Shown here in pieces: positions 39,083 through 48,620 of a stretch of 51,062 nt of DNA. The notes under the pieces were generated by a model. It saw only the letters and a program-made list of their open reading frames with translations, was not told the origin of the DNA and ran no database searches. The position numbers and the translations under genes were made by a program. The stretch's first letter is position 1; every line of letters begins with the position of its first letter. Location: the IMG/VR virus record IMGVR_UViG_3300015192_000001, positions 1-51,062 of that record. One strand, 5' to 3'. The stretch comes from a virus.

Positions 39083-39409
39083 TTATCCGACGATGTCAGT
39101 GTCGTACTGTGCTGCACGTGGATCACCATACTCAGCAAAGGCCTTTCGTACTGGACGTTCTGGCTCGGCTTGAAGTGTCTTGTACGTTGTTGACGCGATC
39201 TTCTTAGTGGCCAGCCTTCGTGCAAAAACTGCGACTGCGGCACCAATGATGTATTGCAGGTCGATGTGGAACGCCGACAGGAGTACTGCCAGACCCACCA
39301 CGCCAACGCCGGCCGCGATCTCCGTGCCCCAAAAGTCCCACAGGTAGACCTTCCAGAAGGCGTCCTTGACTCGGGCTGTGCTTACTCGCTTGGTAGGACT
39401 ATCGGGCAT
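39083..39409 (-). CDS. Membrane protein, 108 aa. Last gene of the minus arm.
   Basis: Two hydrophobic segments (IAAGVGVVGLAVLLSAF, IIGAAVAVFA). Confidence 0.6.
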   Translation of the reverse strand: MPDSPTKRVSTARVKDAFWKVYLWDFWGTEIAAGVGVVGLAVLLSAFHIDLQYIIGAAVAVFARRLATKKIASTTYKTLQAEPERPVRKAFAEYGDPRAAQYDTDIVG

Positions 39410-39641
39410 TCTGTTTCCCCTCGAGAATGAGATTGATCAACACGGCCTCGAACGGATAGGACTTCGTCTCCCCCGAGGTTGCTGCTGTGGCCTCCCACTC
39501 GGCAGCGGTCACCGTGGCTCTCTTACCATCGCCCTCGAGCTCCGACAGGGCTGTTGCGGCGTGCATGGCCACGGCCTCGCGGTATCGCATGACTCGCAAT
39601 GCCGCCCATTCAAGGAACCGCTCGTACGGCTCGTTAAGCAT
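39399..39641 (-). CDS. Hypothetical protein, 80 aa (C-terminal part of track ORF 39399..39938)
   Basis: ATG at 39641, 9 nt after GAGGA. The upstream 99 codons of the track ORF are Ser/Thr/Pro-rich and overlap the HNH frame. Confidence 0.5.
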   Translation of the reverse strand: MLNEPYERFLEWAALRVMRYREAVAMHAATALSELEGDGKRATVTAAEWEATAATSGETKSYPFEAVLINLILEGKQNAR

Positions 39642-39654
39642 GTCGATGAGATCC

Positions 39655-39864
39655 TCATACCCCGACAACTCGGATGCGGTGTCGGGCGTTGTGGTGGACG
39701 AGGCAGAGGGCTTCCAAGTTACTGTCGATGTCCCCACCACCGCGTGAACGGAAGGTTCGATGGTGGATGGCTGAGGCGGGGGCTCCGCAAAGAACGGTTG
39801 AACCGTCCCCGTAAGAAACGGGAAACTCGCACTCTCCGTGCTCTCGCCGGTATCGTTCGACCAC
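39655..39864 (-). CDS. HNH endonuclease, 69 aa from the GTG. The frame is open and basic further upstream.
   Basis: Motifs: ECEF...LCG and IHHRTFRSRGGGDIDSNLEALCLVHHNARH. Confidence 0.65.
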   Translation of the reverse strand: MVERYRREHGECEFPVSYGDGSTVLCGAPASAIHHRTFRSRGGGDIDSNLEALCLVHHNARHRIRVVGV

Positions 39865-39934
39865 TGGTTTGTCAACGATTCGGCTGGGGCGTTTTCTGTG
39901 CTTCTTGCCGCTCTTCGGCTGGGGATTGAAGGTG

Positions 39935-40099
39935 TCATTTGGCGTACTTCTTCTCCTGCGCTTCTGCTCGTGGGGTGATAAACGGCTCAGTGAACTTCAC
40001 CTTGTCCGAGCAGAACGGGCATAGGTCTTCTTCGTCTGCAAGATGAATCGCCTGATTGCGATCAAGGATGATGTCGAAGTGCGTAACTGTTGCTGGCAT
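39935..40099 (-). CDS. Small protein, 54 aa (below the track cutoff)
   Basis: TAATG coupling upstream and ATGA downstream. Sequence MPATVTHFDIILDRNQAIHLADEEDLCPFCSDKVKFTEPFITPRAEAQEKKYAK*. Confidence 0.45.
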   Translation of the reverse strand: MPATVTHFDIILDRNQAIHLADEEDLCPFCSDKVKFTEPFITPRAEAQEKKYAK

Positions 40100-41605: not shown

Positions 41606-41848
41606 CTACGAAGCGCGGGTGATAAGGCGCTTGAGTCGGCGCGAGACGCTCGATTGGTTCACTCCTAACATGTCCGCGATCTCAATTTGAGTCCGTCCCC
41701 CGTATAGAAAGACCAGCATTTCCTCATCGTCAAAGCTGCGGATTGCGTCAATGAGATCGAGGATGTAGATGTGGCGGGACTTGCCCACCTTGAGTCCTTC
41801 GGGACTTACGAGGTCAGTGCTCTTAAGCTGCGGGACGTATTTATCCAT
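41606..41848 (-). CDS. HTH DNA-binding protein, 80 aa (sigma-70 region 4 / LuxR-type helix-turn-helix)
   Basis: Motif GRTQIEIADMLGVNQSSVSRRLKR. Confidence 0.6.
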   Translation of the reverse strand: MDKYVPQLKSTDLVSPEGLKVGKSRHIYILDLIDAIRSFDDEEMLVFLYGGRTQIEIADMLGVNQSSVSRRLKRLITRAS

Positions 41849-42101
41849 AGGTCTCCAGATAAGTCACAACTGCTTTCGCTTTGTCGAGCGTGAGCCGCCC
41901 GACGATGTAGTGGTTACAGAAGCCGCATAGGAGTCCACGAACCTTGCCTGTCTTATGGTCATGGTCCACGGCAAGCCGGATCTTCTTGGGAGGCTTACGG
42001 CAGATGGCACAAAGTCCATCCTGCCTGGTGAGCATTCCGTCGTAGTCGGTGAGGGTGAGTCCGTACTTCTTCTGTAGATAGCGCTCACGCGCTGATGTCA
42101 C
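41841..42101 (-). CDS. Endonuclease VII-family (HNH-superfamily) nuclease, 86 aa
   Basis: Motifs: CAICRK... and VDHDHKTGKVRGLLCGFCN. Confidence 0.75.
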   Translation of the reverse strand: MTSARERYLQKKYGLTLTDYDGMLTRQDGLCAICRKPPKKIRLAVDHDHKTGKVRGLLCGFCNHYIVGRLTLDKAKAVVTYLETYG

Positions 42102-46215: not shown

Positions 46216-46298
46216 TACTTGAAAAAGATGAGGAACACGATGATCGTGGCGGCGATGACGAAGGTGCCGGCGGGGTTCTCTTTGATCCACTTGCTCAT
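46215..46298 (-). CDS. Small hydrophobic peptide, 27 aa, translationally coupled to int
   Basis: ATGA overlap with the int stop, and GGAGG 6 nt upstream. Sequence MSKWIKENPAGTFVIAATIIVFLIFFK*. Confidence 0.45.
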   Translation of the reverse strand: MSKWIKENPAGTFVIAATIIVFLIFFK

Positions 46299-47275
46299 AT
46301 CGCGCCTCCAAATACTTTGCTCAGCGTTGCGGGGTAGGTCTTCAACTGACTCGTAGGAATCTTGCCAACGTAGCGGCGCAGCATGTTGGGGCCTTCCCAT
46401 CCCATGATCTGGAGGATCGCCGTCTCCGGCACCCCCGCCTCATGGAGCTGCTGTGCCCGGTCTACCCGAAGGCGGTGCTGCTTGAAGGGCACGCCTTCCT
46501 TGGCGGCAAGGGCCCGAAACCGCTGGGCCATGGTGTGCCATCCAGAGTCACTGAATGGATGTCCCTCATCGGTGACGAAGAGCGTCTCTTCGCCCTCACC
46601 CCTCCACTCGGCCCGGGTGTTGCGGATGTAGTCCATGATGGGGGCCTTGGCTATGTGTTCCATGGGGACGATACGGACACCAGCATCCGTCTTGGTTTCA
46701 TCCGGCTCTGAAATAACGAAGTGACCCATCTCCTTGCGCTTACCGAAGATGATGTTTCCAAGTCGAAGAAGTCGTGTCTCACGAGATCGAAACCCGTGCA
46801 GCTCCACAGCGAGCCAAGCCCTCTTGAGTACAGGGTTCGGTGCGTCCCCAGCAACTCTGAGTAGGGTACGGACTTCTGCATCTGAGTATCCCGGGAGGCC
46901 TGTCTTGCTCGGCCGCGGGGTCCTACATGAAGCCAGTATCGATAGGCGGGCGAGTTCGTCTCCGGCATACCAGGCCTTCTTTTCTGCGAGGAAGTTGGAC
47001 AACGCCTTGAGGGCGATCATCTTGTTCATCGCGGTGTGGTTCTGCTTCGCCTTCAAGGGTCGGATGTAATCCTCTGCAGTGTTGGCGGTCAGGCCCCCCA
47101 GGACGCGCTGGTCGTCGGGGAGCCAGTTCAGGAACGCATACAGGTGGGACCGGTAGGTCTTCCACGTAGCCTCTCGAAGATCGCTCTCGCGGTCCTGTAG
47201 GAACCACTCGATCGCTGCCTCGAGAGAACTACTAGCGTCCTTCACGCGAGCGTATGCGGCTGTAAAGGTTCTCAT
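46295..47275 (-). CDS. int: Tyrosine integrase (site-specific recombinase), 326 aa
   Basis: N-terminal SAM-like domain. Catalytic region: HGFRSRETR, HRLRVDRAQQLHEAG and IMGWEGPNMLRRYVG. Confidence 0.85.
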   Translation of the reverse strand: MRTFTAAYARVKDASSSLEAAIEWFLQDRESDLREATWKTYRSHLYAFLNWLPDDQRVLGGLTANTAEDYIRPLKAKQNHTAMNKMIALKALSNFLAEKKAWYAGDELARLSILASCRTPRPSKTGLPGYSDAEVRTLLRVAGDAPNPVLKRAWLAVELHGFRSRETRLLRLGNIIFGKRKEMGHFVISEPDETKTDAGVRIVPMEHIAKAPIMDYIRNTRAEWRGEGEETLFVTDEGHPFSDSGWHTMAQRFRALAAKEGVPFKQHRLRVDRAQQLHEAGVPETAILQIMGWEGPNMLRRYVGKIPTSQLKTYPATLSKVFGGAI

Positions 47276-47316: not shown

Positions 47317-47589
47317 CTAACCATTCTTCACATCTCCGCAACATTGGCCACTACCAAGAAATGGACAGTAGGAAATCCGCCAGTCCTGCTTGACAAATGG
47401 TTGGCCCTTCTTTGGGCCAATCTTGTAGATCTGAGGTTCGCCAGCTTTGGTCAGGATTGGTACGTCCGGCAGTGGTGCCGGCAGATCTCCGCAGTCCTGG
47501 AAGATGGCGTACTGCTCATCGAGGTGGACTAGCTTCTTCTTGACGTTCTCACGGAGTTCGTCCGTAATCTTGATCTCGAACTCCATCAC
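47317..47589 (-). CDS. C-terminal fragment of the split Cas4/RecB-like exonuclease, 90 aa
   Basis: GTG-ATG start after AAGGA. Contains VMEFEIKITDE... and a terminal Cys cluster (YCPFLGSGQCCG). Same frame as the inserted Endo VII ORF. Confidence 0.55.
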   Translation of the reverse strand: MMEFEIKITDELRENVKKKLVHLDEQYAIFQDCGDLPAPLPDVPILTKAGEPQIYKIGPKKGQPFVKQDWRISYCPFLGSGQCCGDVKNG

Positions 47590-47605
47590 TGCCGCATCGT
47601 CCTTG

Positions 47606-48472
47606 CTACCAGTACACCAGGCGACCCCACCTAGGAGCTGAAATCAGCCCCGTCCCTTCACATTGGATACATAGTTCATTGCTCTCGCTAGGTTCTCTTC
47701 CCCCAGCATCCCGAGAGATGCGTTGCATCTCTGACATAGCATGCCCCGGAAGAGTCCCGTCGAGTGGTCGTGATCGAAGCAGTTCGCTTCTCTCGTCAGG
47801 CAGATTGAGCACTTCTGCGGCGGCGGAACTTCTAGGAGGCCGTACTTCTTCGCCTTGCGAAGTCTCGCCTTTTGCTGTTGTTCTGTCAGGTTCGCCGCTC
47901 GCCATAGCGGAAAGTAATTGCGATTCTTCGCATTCCACTTTCTCTTGGATTCTCGCACCTTCTCGCGGTTCTGTTCGACGTAGCGCTTCTTTGCCTCGAG
48001 GCTCGGTTGTGTCGTTTTTACACTCCTGGCAAGTTGATGGAAAGGTCCCATAGATGCCTAGCTGGAGGATGTGTTCGGGCTTGGGGAGGTCTCCATATCC
48101 GAAGGCTTTTGTTCGGGTTGACTTGTACTCGATGACTTCGAGTTCTCCGTCAGGACGACGGACAAGCGTATCGAGTCGCCCGGATACGTGGTAATCGGCG
48201 TCTCGGACCCGGAGCTCATGACCAACCAACGAATATCCCTCGGGGAGTCCAGACGCAACAGCCTTCTGCAGACCTGCGTGAACCTCGTCTCCCATCCAGA
48301 ACACTCGGAGTGTTCGATCGTCAAAATCGGCCCCCCGGACTCCTGCTCGCTTAAGGACAGCTTGACGCTCGCAGCCTCCAATTTGGGAGGGGTACCAGTG
48401 GGCTTGTGGGCCTTCCCGGACCTCCCGGGTGCTCGAAATGTACCTAGAAATTGCTTCACTGATTAGACCCAA
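47606..48472 (-). CDS. N-terminal catalytic part of a PD-(D/E)XK (Cas4/RecB-like) exonuclease. Only about the first 140 codons (48052..48472) look native; the rest of the ORF is the second frame of the Endo VII gene.
   Basis: Motifs: YPSQIGGCERQ, GRLDTLVRRPDGELEVIEYKS (D...ExK) and HILQLGIY (QxxxY). After the insert the frame reads ...APRWGRLVYW* and stops on TAG at 47606. Confidence 0.6.
   Translation of the reverse strand: MGLISEAISRYISSTREVREGPQAHWYPSQIGGCERQAVLKRAGVRGADFDDRTLRVFWMGDEVHAGLQKAVASGLPEGYSLVGHELRVRDADYHVSGRLDTLVRRPDGELEVIEYKSTRTKAFGYGDLPKPEHILQLGIYGTFPSTCQECKNDTTEPRGKEALRRTEPREGARIQEKVECEESQLLSAMASGEPDRTTAKGETSQGEEVRPPRSSAAAEVLNLPDERSELLRSRPLDGTLPGHAMSEMQRISRDAGGREPSESNELCIQCEGTGLISAPRWGRLVYW
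47644..48051 (-). CDS. Endonuclease VII-family (HNH-superfamily) nuclease, 135 aa. Candidate free-standing homing endonuclease inserted in the exonuclease gene.
   Basis: Motifs: KCSICLTRE and FDHDHSTGLFRGMLCQRCN. Paralog of 41841..42101. The ATG lies inside the codons for ...LGIYG of the exonuclease. Confidence 0.75.
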   Translation of the reverse strand: MGPFHQLARSVKTTQPSLEAKKRYVEQNREKVRESKRKWNAKNRNYFPLWRAANLTEQQQKARLRKAKKYGLLEVPPPQKCSICLTREANCFDHDHSTGLFRGMLCQRCNASLGMLGEENLARAMNYVSNVKGRG

Positions 48473-48522: not shown

Positions 48523-48551
48523 ACTATACCATATCTAGACCCAAATGTCAA
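48523..48551 (-). promoter_or_regulatory. Near-consensus promoter: TTGACA, 17-nt spacer, TATAGT
   Basis: Minus strand reads cTTGACAtttgggtctagatatggTATAGTcagg, upstream of the exonuclease gene. Confidence 0.7.
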
Positions 48552-48568
48552 GTAGGTAGATATGGAAC

Positions 48569-48598
48569 AAGAGCCGCCCTGATTAGAGAGCGGCTCTT
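48569..48598 (-). terminator. 9-bp hairpin AAGAGCCGC...GCGGCTCTT downstream of gene 48621..48974
   Basis: Read directly. On the minus strand it is followed by TGTTCC, a weak U-tract. Confidence 0.4.
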
Positions 48599-48620
48599 GG
48601 GTCGGGAGAGGAGGGGTTGA

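What the first reader, a model, noticed from the sequence alone, without database searches (positions are those of the whole stretch)
47317..48472. Cas4-like exonuclease gene split by an Endo VII/HNH gene, with the host frame staying open through the insert
The catalytic N-terminal part (C...D...ExK...QLGIY) ends where the Endo VII ORF starts. The ATG at 48051 lies inside the codons for ...GIYG.

The exonuclease frame has no stop across all 136 codons of the insert, which is uncommon for a second frame. It then reads ...APRWGRLVYW and stops on TAG at 47606.

The expected continuation (SKDDAAVMEFEIKITDE..., with a C-terminal Cys cluster) is in the +1 frame. That is the same frame as the Endo VII ORF, and it has its own GTG-ATG start and AAGGA SD at 47589.

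Four explanations fit:
- a gene split by a free-standing homing endonuclease, as described for some T4-like genes
- an unrecognised intron
- +1 recoding at UGG-UAG-C
- decay of the gene

A paralogous Endo VII gene (41841..42101) and an HNH gene (39655..39864) also sit in this arm.
Basis: partly seen in the sequence, partly recalled or inferred. Interest (0 to 1): 0.62.

Follow-up and report, generated by a model that had tools for sequence, protein, structure and literature searches.

The report
Homing endonuclease nested in exonuclease gene
A phage Cas4-like nuclease gene carries a selfish endonuclease gene hidden in another reading frame inside a zinc-clamped loop, is apparently read straight through it, and is then broken by one extra base twelve codons later; the hidden-gene trick was first described in 2025, so this is a new variant of a known kind.

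Summary
The interpretation needs re-cutting.

Insert-free homologues show that the Endo VII-type HNH gene (47644..48051, minus strand) does not split the Cas4-like exonuclease gene. It lies one base out of phase between the two knuckles of a zinc ribbon (CQEC ... 116 residues ... CIQCEGTG). The exonuclease frame is in phase on both sides.

That frame is stop-free by codon choice. None of 42 at-risk codon junctions carries a T (p about 0.003-0.02). This is the non-spliced "hidden HNH / ShiLan" arrangement described in 2025 (PMC11855218). The scan has already noted it in at least 15 other genomes, mostly in methylase genes. Here it sits in a new host gene, with a different nuclease family and a zinc ribbon around it.

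The actual break is a separate lesion. One extra T (47608; TAC TGG T AGC AAG) lies inside the invariant GRLVYW|SKDD motif. Programmed +1 recoding is unlikely, and intron and intein readings are excluded.

Related contigs hint that CxxCxG(S/T)G knuckles travel with such endonuclease genes. In one, an Endo VII gene truly splits the same gene family.

The parts
48523..48551 (-). Promoter-like site TTGACA-17-TATAGT with TG extension (11 of 12 matches). It lies about 50 nt upstream of the exonuclease start and just after a hairpin at about 48570..48600.
   Evidence: consensus scan: 1 site found against 0.6 expected in shuffles; for the sequence.
48050..48472 (-). Exonuclease N-terminal core, residues 1-141. 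It holds Cys34 (first Fe-S ligand), GRLD (Asp101), EYK (Glu115, Lys117) and QLGIY (Gln137, Tyr141). TTG start at 48470..48472.
   Evidence: AF2 pLDDT is above 95. Foldseek best hits are Cas4 SSO0001 (4ic1), type I-C Cas4 (8d3l), MGME1 and AdnAB.
48020..48031 (-). Zinc-ribbon knuckle 1 in the exonuclease frame (Cys148-Gln-Glu-Cys151). The same bases are read as HNH codons 8-11.
   Evidence: It aligns with FPxxCPxC of ribbon-bearing homologues; coordinates.
47644..48051 (-). Endo VII-type HNH endonuclease gene, 135 aa, in the +1 frame relative to the exonuclease. The ATG lies in the Tyr-Gly codons of QLGIYG. The TGA lies just after knuckle 2. The catalytic DHDH...RG.LC..CN motif is intact.
   Evidence: PF02945 E 1.7e-13 and phrog_2633 E 1.3e-15. 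28% identity over 127 aa to the Endo VII gene that splits the same family in L029. Absent from the closest alleles L001 and L002.
47672..48019 (-). Inter-knuckle stretch read in the exonuclease frame: 116 residues, stop-free, rich in Glu, Arg, Ser, Pro and Gly, with no homologue anywhere. Predicted to be disordered.
   Evidence: 265 HMMER hits among 1.84 billion proteins cover only query residues 3-155 and 267-381. AF2 pLDDT is below 50 for most of 159-258. No Pfam hit at E up to 10.
47648..47671 (-). Zinc-ribbon knuckle 2 in the exonuclease frame (Cys268-Ile-Gln-Cys271-Glu-Gly-Thr-Gly, a CxxCxGxG motif). The same bases are read as the last HNH codons (...NYVSNVKGR).
   Evidence: It aligns with CxLCxG(S/T)GxL of homologues P0015, P0019, P0022, P0025, P0029 and P0032; coordinates.
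47609..47626 (-). GRLVYW: a conserved beta-strand of the exonuclease, still in the N-terminal frame. It includes the invariant Tyr287.
   Evidence: it lies within AF2 strand 282-289.
47606..47608 (-). TAG stop created by one extra T at 47608. The window reads TAC TGG T AGC AAG, where L001 reads TAC TGG TCA AAG. This is the frame-shift point.
   Evidence: DNA alignment with L001 and L002. 23 homologous loci read GR[LI][VI]YxSK[DN]D without interruption.
47320..47607 (-). Exonuclease C-terminal part in the +1 frame: SKDDAAVMEF...YCPFLGSGQCCGDVKNG. It includes the near-invariant Lys290 and the three C-terminal Fe-S cysteines (47332..47370). Possible restart codons are GTG 47587..47589 and ATG 47584..47586, behind AAGGA. 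The stop is at 47317..47319.
   Evidence: dN/dS against L001 is 0.10, the same as for the N-terminal part. AF2 pLDDT is above 95.

Best explanation
The locus is one Cas4-like (PD-(D/E)XK plus Fe-S) exonuclease gene of an uncultured phage. It has been invaded by a free-standing Endo VII-type HNH homing-endonuclease gene.

**How the element sits in the gene**
- It is carried as a non-spliced, 'hidden' insertion of the ShiLan type.
- The endonuclease is read in the +1 frame, from an ATG built by a synonymous TAC-to-TAT change in the host's QLGIY Tyr codon.
- Ribosomes translating the exonuclease pass straight through the same DNA in the host frame. Codon choice keeps that frame free of stops.
- The read-through gives a roughly 116-residue disordered loop. 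Its two ends are held together by a zinc ribbon (CQEC ... CIQCEGTG) in a surface loop that varies in length across the family.
- The endonuclease presumably cuts insert-free alleles in co-infecting relatives and is copied in by repair. This step is inferred by analogy, not shown.

**The break**
- Twelve codons after the ribbon, a single extra T (47608) shifts the frame inside the invariant GRLVYW|SKDD hairpin.
- I read it as a very recent lesion and not part of the design. It is either a real mutation in the sampled population (about 55%) or an assembly or sequencing error (about 35%).
- If it is real, the gene now gives a 288-aa N-piece. At best it also gives an 89-90-aa C-piece by re-initiation at GTG or ATG 14-17 nt downstream. 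That C-piece would lack the conserved SKDD turn, so activity is probably lost or much reduced.
For: **Shown**
- Eleven or more uninterrupted homologues read QLGIYGTFP-[loop]-GRLVYWSKDDAxxxEF. The closest are P0006/L001 (85% identity) and P0001/L002 (76%).
- Both flanks of the insert are host-coded in the same frame. They align with the two knuckles of a ribbon present in about 20 homologues.
- The HNH identity is firm.
- Nothing in 1.84 billion proteins matches the insert read in the host frame. AF2 gives a confident Cas4-like core with the insert disordered.
- Stop avoidance: 0 of 42 at-risk junctions carry a T, p 0.0025. Permutation gives 1.9% and 0.28%. The genome background is 2-5%.
- As a control, the other open frame, over the N-terminal part, is not unusual (p 0.49).
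- There is no intron model hit, no Hint or intein signal, and no room for a ribozyme: the ORF fills the insert.
- In the core tree the window nests, with 100/98 support, among ribbon-less and HNH-less alleles. Ribbon and HNH are therefore recent joint gains.
- The frame-shift is pinned to 4 nt in place of 3, inside a motif kept in 23 loci.
- dN/dS is 0.10 in both halves, so the break is recent.
- 16 other genes shared with L002 are each in one frame in the window, so there is no general indel problem.

**Precedent**
- PMC11855218 describes the same architecture in mycobacteriophage methylases.
- A 2025 preprint reports out-of-frame Endo VII-like endonucleases inside actinophage inteins and names Cas4 exonucleases among the intein-invaded host proteins.
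Against: - This HNH gene and this allele are known from one metagenomic contig only. Stop avoidance therefore cannot be tested across copies, and the p-values are post hoc.
- As assembled, the host ORF is not intact, which is a defining point of the ShiLan arrangement.
- The HNH start has only a 3-nt AGG five bases upstream. There is no evidence that either frame is translated.
- Zinc binding by the knuckles is inferred from the motif and the alignment only.
- The exact insert boundaries are blurred. The HNH ORF overlaps host-like codons at both ends, and no close ribbon-bearing empty allele was found.
- The immediate stop created by the extra T (T+AG) is a mild coincidence that a plain random indel does not explain.
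Confidence: 0.7

Rival explanations
1. Assembly or sequencing artefact. The extra T at 47608 does not exist in the phage. The exonuclease is then one intact 384-aa protein with the read-through loop, which is a clean ShiLan-type case.
For: - It is a single-contig metagenomic record.
- The C-terminal part shows no decay (dN/dS 0.10).
- The codons SKDDAA are kept intact, with only synonymous differences from L001.
- Selection kept 136 upstream codons open, which makes no sense if the protein stops 12 codons later.
Against: - The site is not a homopolymer.
- 16 neighbouring genes show no frame breaks, so the assembly is not indel-prone.
- Most IMG/VR contigs are k-mer assemblies, in which an inserted base must occur in reads. 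That is my knowledge, not checked for this record.
Confidence: 0.35
2. Functional two-piece enzyme ('gene in pieces'). The T is real. Translation ends at TAG and restarts at GTG 47589 or ATG 47586 behind AAGGA. The 288-aa and 89-90-aa pieces reassemble through the shared beta-sheet and the Fe-S cluster, which takes Cys34 from one piece and three cysteines from the other.
For: - The break falls at the end of strand 282-289, before the hairpin turn to strand 295-301 in the model.
- The stop and the restart are 14-17 nt apart, with an SD-like AAGGA.
- A truly split member of the same family exists in two contigs (L028/L029).
- Split phage genes that stay active are known, for example Aeh1 NrdA with mobE and T4 genes 39 and 60. 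That is from my knowledge; the review is PMC2988022.
Against: - The restart skips SKDDAA, including near-invariant Lys290. The motif is kept in 23 loci.
- AAGGA and ATG are simply the conserved Lys-Asp and Met codons, also present in unsplit L001. They are not adaptations.
- No second allele with this split was found.
Confidence: 0.15
3. Programmed +1 ribosomal frameshift at UGG UAG C (a shifty stop, as in RF2). This would restore a single full-length exonuclease, perhaps as a 'savior indel' that also protects the site from the endonuclease.
For: - The shift point is a stop codon in a weak UAG-C context, directly at the place where the frame must change.
- The downstream frame is perfectly preserved.
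- T4 mobA with the gene 60 bypass is a precedent for a recoding signal travelling with a homing endonuclease (PMC5009743).
Against: - tRNA-Trp on UGG cannot re-pair on GGU.
- The SD-like AGGUG lies 15 nt upstream, against 3 nt in RF2 (from my knowledge).
- There is no downstream structure (z -0.49).
- The phage has no suppressor or frameshift tRNA, only tRNA-His.
- No relative has the shift.
Confidence: 0.06
4. Ordinary disruption and decay. The endonuclease gene simply landed in a dispensable gene, the open host frame is luck, and the gene is a pseudogene on its way out.
For: - The host ORF is broken as assembled.
- Alternative frames are open fairly often in this 57% GC genome, at 2-5%.
- The closest allele, L001, itself has Gly in place of a cluster cysteine.
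Against: - Stop avoidance has p of 0.003-0.02 on top of the 1-in-3 chance of phase preservation.
- Both ribbon knuckles and every catalytic and Fe-S residue are intact.
- dN/dS is 0.10.
- A strong promoter-like site lies in front of the gene.
Confidence: 0.1
5. Self-splicing element. The insert is a group I or II intron, or the host-frame reading is an intein with an overprinted endonuclease gene.
For: - Introns and inteins are the usual vehicles of homing endonucleases.
- Actinophage Cas4 exonucleases are known intein targets, and inteins with an out-of-frame Endo VII-like endonuclease exist.
Against: - No Rfam hit at E up to 10.
- The 408-nt ORF covers the whole insert, leaving no room for a ribozyme.
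- No Hint or intein Pfam signal at E up to 10.
- There is no His-Asn followed by Cys, Ser or Thr at the end of the insert.
- The host-frame insert has no homologue in 1.84 billion proteins and is predicted to be disordered.
- A splice could not repair the later frameshift.
Confidence: 0.02

Closest known systems
'ShiLan domain' and Pacc40 gp60 hidden HNH insertions in mycobacteriophage DNA methylase genes (Arsenault, Gosselin, Gogarten 2025, Genes 16:178, PMC11855218)
   Same: - The insertion is absent from close homologues.
- It has no stop when read in the host frame, and an HNH gene in another frame fills almost all of it.
- There are no intron or intein signatures.
- The host-frame product is predicted to be a loose loop.
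- It is unclear how the inner gene is translated.
   Different: - The host gene is a Cas4-like exonuclease, not a methylase.
- The nuclease is Endo VII-type (PF02945, 135 aa), not a 195-aa HNH with zinc fingers.
- The start codon lies upstream of the insertion, in a conserved host motif, not 18 nt inside it.
- The insert sits between two CxxC knuckles.
- Here the host ORF is additionally broken by a 1-nt insertion.
Inteins with an out-of-frame Endo VII-like homing endonuclease in actinophages (bioRxiv 10.1101/2025.01.02.630785) and the cyanobacterial dnaX intein (bioRxiv 10.64898/2026.09.14.751524)
   Same: An Endo VII-like endonuclease is overprinted in another frame of an in-frame insertion. 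Cas4 exonucleases are listed among the invaded genes.
   Different: Those insertions are inteins that splice themselves out. Here no Hint domain or splice residues are present, so the insert must stay in the protein.
Genes in pieces made by free-standing homing endonucleases: Aeh1 nrdA with mobE, T4 genes 39 and 60 with mobA (review PMC2988022; PMC5009743)
   Same: A free-standing HNH-type gene sits inside a conserved phage enzyme gene, close to a catalytic motif. The possible outcome is two polypeptides that reassemble.
   Different: In those cases the endonuclease gene itself separates the two ORFs. In the window it does not: the split comes from a separate 1-nt insertion. The classical arrangement is seen in L028/L029, not here.
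Fractured genes: split inteins flanking a free-standing endonuclease gene (Dassa et al. 2009, PMC2677866)
   Same: The architecture is [host N-part + association module] - endonuclease gene - [association module + host C-part], as in L029.
   Different: The flanking modules here are 10-14-residue CxxCxGTG knuckles, far too small for intein halves. Any rejoining would be non-covalent, through a metal.
F-CphI of cyanophage S-PM2, a homing endonuclease with the Endo VII catalytic motif (PMC6083498)
   Same: It shows that Endo VII-type nucleases can act as free-standing homing endonucleases in phages.
   Different: F-CphI is intergenic (beside psbA) and is not nested in a reading frame. No sequence comparison was made here.
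prfB (RF2) +1 programmed frameshift, CUU UGA C (my knowledge; review PMC5009743)
   Same: A stop codon followed by C lies at the exact point where a +1 shift restores the conserved protein.
   Different: There is no slippery P-site codon, no SD 3 nt upstream and no conservation in relatives.

Membership tests
Cas4-like PD-(D/E)XK nuclease with Fe-S cluster (PF12705; phrog_1706/1990) | Catalytic motifs D ... ExK ... QxxxY | tested here: met
   GRLD (Asp101), EYK (Glu115, Lys117) and QLGIY (Gln137, Tyr141) fall in invariant or near-invariant columns of a 46-sequence alignment.
Cas4-like PD-(D/E)XK nuclease with Fe-S cluster (PF12705; phrog_1706/1990) | Four cysteines for the cluster: one N-terminal, three C-terminal | tested here: met
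   Cys34 and YCPFLGSGQCC are present. They lie on different ORFs as assembled.
Cas4-like PD-(D/E)XK nuclease with Fe-S cluster (PF12705; phrog_1706/1990) | Cas4 fold | tested here: met
   The AF2 core has pLDDT above 95. Foldseek top hits are 4ic1 (SSO0001 Cas4), 8d3l (type I-C Cas4), MGME1, AdnAB and Exo5.
Cas4-like PD-(D/E)XK nuclease with Fe-S cluster (PF12705; phrog_1706/1990) | One uninterrupted reading frame | tested here: not met
   A 1-nt insertion at 47608 breaks the frame.
Endonuclease VII-type HNH nuclease (PF02945) | Profile match above the curated cut-off, with the DHDH...N catalytic and Cys4 zinc motifs | tested here: met
   50.7 bits against 23.6. The sequence reads CSIC...CFDHDH...RGMLCQRCN.
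Endonuclease VII-type HNH nuclease (PF02945) | Site-specific cleavage of insert-free alleles (homing) | not testable with these tools
   Only presence or absence is known: the gene is absent from L001 and L002, and the window nests among HNH-less alleles.
ShiLan-type out-of-frame HNH insertion element (PMC11855218) | Insertion absent from close homologues of the host gene | tested here: met
ShiLan-type out-of-frame HNH insertion element (PMC11855218) | No stop in the host frame across the insertion, and phase kept | tested here: met
   136 codons are open and the flanks are in phase. Openness is beyond chance at p 0.003-0.02.
ShiLan-type out-of-frame HNH insertion element (PMC11855218) | Complete HNH ORF in another frame of the same strand | tested here: met
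ShiLan-type out-of-frame HNH insertion element (PMC11855218) | No intron or intein features | tested here: met
ShiLan-type out-of-frame HNH insertion element (PMC11855218) | Host gene translatable from start to finish | tested here: not met
   A TAG stop lies 12 codons after the ribbon. The feature would be met if the T is an artefact.
ShiLan-type out-of-frame HNH insertion element (PMC11855218) | Many copies with a disjunct distribution | tested here: inconclusive
   Only one contig carries this HNH gene.
Gene split by a free-standing homing endonuclease (Aeh1 nrdA/mobE type) | The endonuclease gene lies between the stop of the upstream piece and the start of the downstream piece | tested here: not met
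   The host frame runs through and beyond the HNH gene. The feature is met in L028/L029.
Group I or II intron | Ribozyme core detectable, and exon junction restores the frame | tested here: not met
   No Rfam hit at E up to 10. The ORF fills the insert. The frameshift lies outside it.
Intein | Hint domain blocks, Cys/Ser at the start, His-Asn plus Cys/Ser/Thr at the end | tested here: not met
   No Pfam hit. No homologues of the host-frame insert. The sequence lacks His-Asn.
RF2-type +1 programmed frameshift | P-site codon that re-pairs in +1, SD about 3 nt upstream, conservation of the site | tested here: not met
   UGG to GGU cannot re-pair. AGGUG lies 15 nt upstream. The site is absent in 23 homologous loci. 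The only feature present is the stop in the A site.

The most novel reading that the evidence does not exclude
The mobile unit may not be the endonuclease gene alone. It may be a cassette that brings its own pair of CxxCxG(S/T)G zinc knuckles, one at each end and overprinted on the termini of the endonuclease ORF. The knuckles would bind one metal ion and staple the two ends of the insertion together.

With that staple, the host protein would tolerate the element in two ways:
- as a read-through loop, as in this window;
- as two separate polypeptides, as in L028/L029.

This would be a non-splicing, non-covalent counterpart of inteins and split inteins.

On this reading, the zinc ribbons scattered over insert-free members of the exonuclease family are footprints of past invasions. 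At least 9-13 gains or losses occur on a 46-sequence core tree, no better clustered than shuffled labels. The extra T might be a protective 'savior' indel near the cleavage site.
Probability: 0.25. Interest if true: 0.8.

Novelty: new variant of a known kind. Interest (0 to 1): 0.48.

Why it matters
Homing endonuclease genes were long thought to survive inside essential or useful genes only by hiding in self-splicing introns or inteins. The 2025 'hidden HNH' reports showed a third way: the host simply reads through.

This locus extends that route in three respects:
- a different host enzyme, a Cas4-like exonuclease, a gene type already known to be invaded by inteins;
- a different nuclease family, Endo VII;
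- a different structural context, an insert held between two zinc knuckles in a loop of variable length.

It also gives a clean within-gene statistic for selection on the second frame. Together with the split allele in L028/L029, it offers a testable idea for how a protein can tolerate such a parasite without splicing.

For annotation the practical lesson is that gene callers report three ORFs here (288, 135 and 89 aa) where there is one host gene plus one nested gene. The 1-nt lesion should be checked against reads before the gene is called a pseudogene.

Tried and rejected
- **Reads.** No RNA evidence was available.
- **Searching for other copies.** DNA search of the phage collection gave no match. 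Searches for the HNH protein in viral and metagenome contigs and in the 5.8-billion-protein index found only the window itself.
- **Exonuclease relatives.** The profile found only distant relatives in IMG/VR, JGI metagenomes and GTDB genomes. Two weak hits came from cultured phages. The closest alleles came from Logan and ENA contigs. A 26-sequence profile was too diverse for the scanner.
- **Intron and intein.** Both rejected.
- **TAG reassignment or a suppressor tRNA.** Earlier notes on start-less ORFs behind TAG in this genome prompted this check. It was rejected: only tRNA-His is present, and reading TAG as a sense codon would not restore the homologous sequence.
- **RNA structure behind the shift site.** None found.
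- **Is the long +1 frame over the N-terminal part meaningful?** No. It is also open in the insert-free relatives, and permutation gives p 0.49.
- **Do relatives of this HNH sit inside genes elsewhere?** P0163 and P0164 are ordinary intergenic Endo VII genes.
- **The in-frame insert of P0019.** Pfam and PDB sequence searches gave nothing, and the single-sequence AF2 model was unusable (pLDDT 44). Only phrog_5046, annotated 'HNH endonuclease', matched at E 5e-6. My impression of a LAGLIDADG motif there is untested.
- **Short hits as split pieces.** Short hits in the HMMER list were checked as possible split pieces. None begins with the M..C..C start seen in P0036, so they look like truncated or mis-started gene calls, apart from P0036 itself.
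Full report
**1. What is in the sequence**

The window is a complete 51,062-bp IMG/VR virus record with terminal repeats. On the minus strand three ORFs overlap or abut:
- 47606..48472, 288 aa;
- 47644..48051, 135 aa;
- 47317..47589, 90 aa.

The first matches PD-(D/E)XK / Cas4-like families, but only over its first 148 residues or so. The second is an Endonuclease VII-type HNH protein (PF02945, E 1.7e-13). The third matches nothing on its own.

**2. What uninterrupted relatives look like**

A word-indexed search and a full HMMER search gave 265 relatives. The closest are P0006 (85% identity; contig L001), P0001 (76%; L002) and P0002 (69%). All are single proteins of about 230-310 aa that read ...PEHILQLGIYGTFPA - variable loop - P.xGRLVYWSKDDAxxxEF... 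and end in a CxxxxxxxCC cluster.

L001 and L002 are syntenic with the window. L002 shares the lysin, primase, DnaB, ClpP, sigma-like and RNase H-like genes, and L001 the tyrosine-recombinase gene next to the exonuclease. The two window fragments therefore belong to one gene.

Read with the four-base word TAGC as Ser, the window gives a 384-aa protein (P0013). Its AlphaFold model has a very confident core: pLDDT above 95 for residues 1-150 and 270-380. The best structural matches are Cas4 SSO0001 (4ic1), type I-C Cas4, MGME1 and AdnAB.

**3. The HNH gene does not split the host gene**

The multiple alignment and the DNA alignment with L001 and L002 show host-coded, conserved sequence in the same frame on both sides of the HNH ORF. 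On one side this is QLGIYGTFPSTCQEC. On the other it is ELCIQCEGTGLISAPRWGRLVYW.

About twenty homologues carry a small zinc ribbon in this loop, of the form FPxxCPxC ...(2-25 residues)... CxLCxG(S/T)GxL.P..GRLIYW. The window's CQEC (48020..48031) and CIQCEGTG (47648..47671) align with the two knuckles. In the window, 116 residues lie between them.

The HNH ORF covers this whole stretch in the +1 frame and overlaps both knuckles:
- Its ATG is formed in the Tyr-Gly codons of QLGIYG, where the window has TAT and L001 has TAC.
- A second synonymous change nearby (CTC to CTA) creates both an AGG five bases upstream of the ATG and a TAG that closes the HNH frame two codons before the ATG.
- Its TGA lies just after knuckle 2.

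**4. Is the open host frame more than luck?**

| Test | Result |
|---|---|
| 136-codon windows open in an alternative frame, this genome's genes | 2-5% |
| Synonymous codon permutation within the HNH gene keeps the host frame open | 1.9% of trials |
| Resampling with genome codon usage keeps it open | 0.28% of trials |
| T-ending codons at the 42 at-risk junctions (next codon AA, AG or GA) | 0 of 42 |
| T-ending codons at the other junctions of the same gene | 15 of 93 (Fisher p 0.0025) |
| T-ending codons at at-risk junctions in other genes | 12.9% |

The phase is also kept, a 1-in-3 event. As a control, the long +1 frame over the N-terminal part of the exonuclease is not unusual. It is also open in insert-free relatives, and permutation gives p 0.49.

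I conclude that the host frame has been under selection to stay open across the endonuclease gene. That means it is, or until very recently was, translated through it. The resulting 116 residues have no homologue among 1.84 billion proteins and no Pfam match. They are predicted to be disordered.

**5. Not an intron, not an intein**

- Rfam gives nothing at E up to 10, and the ORF leaves no room for a ribozyme.
- The host-frame insert has no Hint signal and no terminal His-Asn plus Cys/Ser/Thr.
- Neither kind of splicing could repair the later frameshift.

**6. The real break**

Where L001 reads TAC TGG TCA AAG GAC, the window reads TAC TGG T AGC AAG GAC. One extra base (T at 47608) creates TAG at once and moves the rest of the gene into the +1 frame.

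The motif GR[LI][VI]YxSK[DN]D is uninterrupted in 23 homologous loci. Tyr287 is invariant and Lys290 nearly so. In the model the break falls at the end of strand 282-289, just before the hairpin turn to strand 295-301.

Evidence on its age and reality:
- dN/dS against L001 is 0.098 for the N-terminal part and 0.101 for the C-terminal part, and all functional residues are intact. The lesion is therefore recent, artefactual or compensated.
- Sixteen other genes shared with L002 are each in one frame in the window, so the assembly is not indel-prone.

Evidence on programmed +1 shifting:
- It has little support. tRNA-Trp cannot re-pair on GGU, the SD-like AGGUG is 15 nt upstream, and there is no downstream structure (z -0.49).
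- There is no unusual tRNA, and the site is not conserved.
- The immediate stop and the weak UAG-C context keep it from being zero.

My split is: real recent mutation about 55%, artefact about 35%, recoding about 6%.

If the T is real, re-initiation at GTG 47589 or ATG 47586 could give a C-piece. That piece would lack the conserved SKDD turn, so I expect a crippled enzyme, not a designed two-piece one.

**7. Wider context found on the way**

- *A truly split member.* In two Logan contigs (L028, L029) a member of the same exonuclease family is truly split by a related Endo VII gene (28% identity over 127 aa) at a different hairpin. The N-piece ends ...RVRNDEEVPCLNCGGTGNL-stop. The C-piece starts MSKCGSCSGTGKLSVKVSGRIDTL... 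Again the start and the stop of the endonuclease ORF overlap the knuckle codons.
- *An in-frame insert.* In L027 a 451-aa member carries a 149-residue in-frame insert between the knuckles. It matches an endonuclease-annotated phage family (phrog_5046, E 5e-6).
- *Patchy ribbon distribution.* On a tree of the exonuclease core without the loop, the window nests with 100/98 support among ribbon-less, HNH-less alleles. Ribbon presence needs 13 changes, of which strongly supported branches force at least 9. That is no fewer than for shuffled labels.

These three points suggest, but do not prove, that the knuckles move with, or are left behind by, endonuclease cassettes.

**8. Comparison with what is known**

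- The architecture is that of the 'ShiLan domain' and the Pacc40 gp60 insertion: out-of-frame HNH genes inside mycobacteriophage methylase genes that are read through without stops (PMC11855218).
- Out-of-frame Endo VII-like endonucleases have been reported inside actinophage inteins. The same survey lists Cas4 exonucleases among the host proteins that inteins invade.
- Earlier agents of this scan have described the same read-through design in at least 15 other genomes, mostly in methylases.

What is new here is the host gene, the nuclease family in an intein-less setting, the zinc-ribbon frame around the insert, the start codon borrowed from a catalytic host motif, and the accompanying 1-nt lesion.

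**9. Verdict**

This is a new variant of a recently described kind. Interest is moderate. It would rise if the knuckle-cassette idea holds, or if the extra T proves to be real and decoded.

Noticed in passing
L029:87-1402 (same arrangement in L028:731-2046): A member of the same exonuclease family is truly split into a 100-aa and a 228-aa ORF by a 121-aa Endo VII gene, at the RVRD/VSGRLD hairpin. Each piece carries a CxxCxGTGxL knuckle at the break (..PCLNCGGTGNL-stop; MSKCGSCSGTGKLS..). All three ORFs overlap in three different frames. It is seen in two independent run assemblies.
   Followed up: partly
L027:328-1683 (P0019, 451 aa): A 149-residue in-frame insert lies between the two ribbon knuckles of another family member. 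It matches phrog_5046, annotated 'HNH endonuclease' (E 5e-6), and has a LAGLIDADG-looking LAWAGGFFDGEGH stretch. Pfam, PDB sequence search and a single-sequence fold gave nothing.
   Followed up: partly
window 39399..39996 (minus strand): A second HNH gene has no canonical start for its basic N-terminus. It is overlapped along its whole length by a 179-aa ORF in the +1 frame that starts at ATG 39938 and ends in a plausible 75-residue real domain. This could be another overlap or frameshift case in the same genome.
   Followed up: no
window 41841..42101 (minus strand); L002:10259-10519: The 86-aa Endo VII 'paralogue' is conserved (68% identity) at the same place between the ClpP-like and sigma-like genes in relative L002. 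It looks like a resident gene (resolvase or fixed endonuclease), not a recent invader.
   Followed up: partly
window 48523..48600 (minus strand): A near-consensus extended -10 promoter (TTGACA-17-TG-TATAGT) follows directly after a GC-rich hairpin, just upstream of the exonuclease gene. The exonuclease probably opens a transcription unit.
   Followed up: no
L001:144-959 and 1231-1616: The closest insert-free allele has Gly where the family has the first C-terminal cluster cysteine (..WRISYGPFLGSGKCC..). The neighbouring tyrosine-recombinase gene is called in short pieces there. That 2.1-kb contig may itself carry errors or decay.
   Followed up: no
window 46295..47275 (minus strand): A 326-aa tyrosine recombinase (PF00589, E 1.5e-12) lies between the exonuclease and primase genes. 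It is present in L001 but absent at that place in L002, so it is a variable module within the replication arm.
   Followed up: no
tree of 46 exonuclease cores: The presence of the loop zinc ribbon is scattered across the family tree as much as shuffled labels are (13 changes against 15 expected). A structural element behaving like a mobile or repeatedly lost insertion is unusual.
   Followed up: partly
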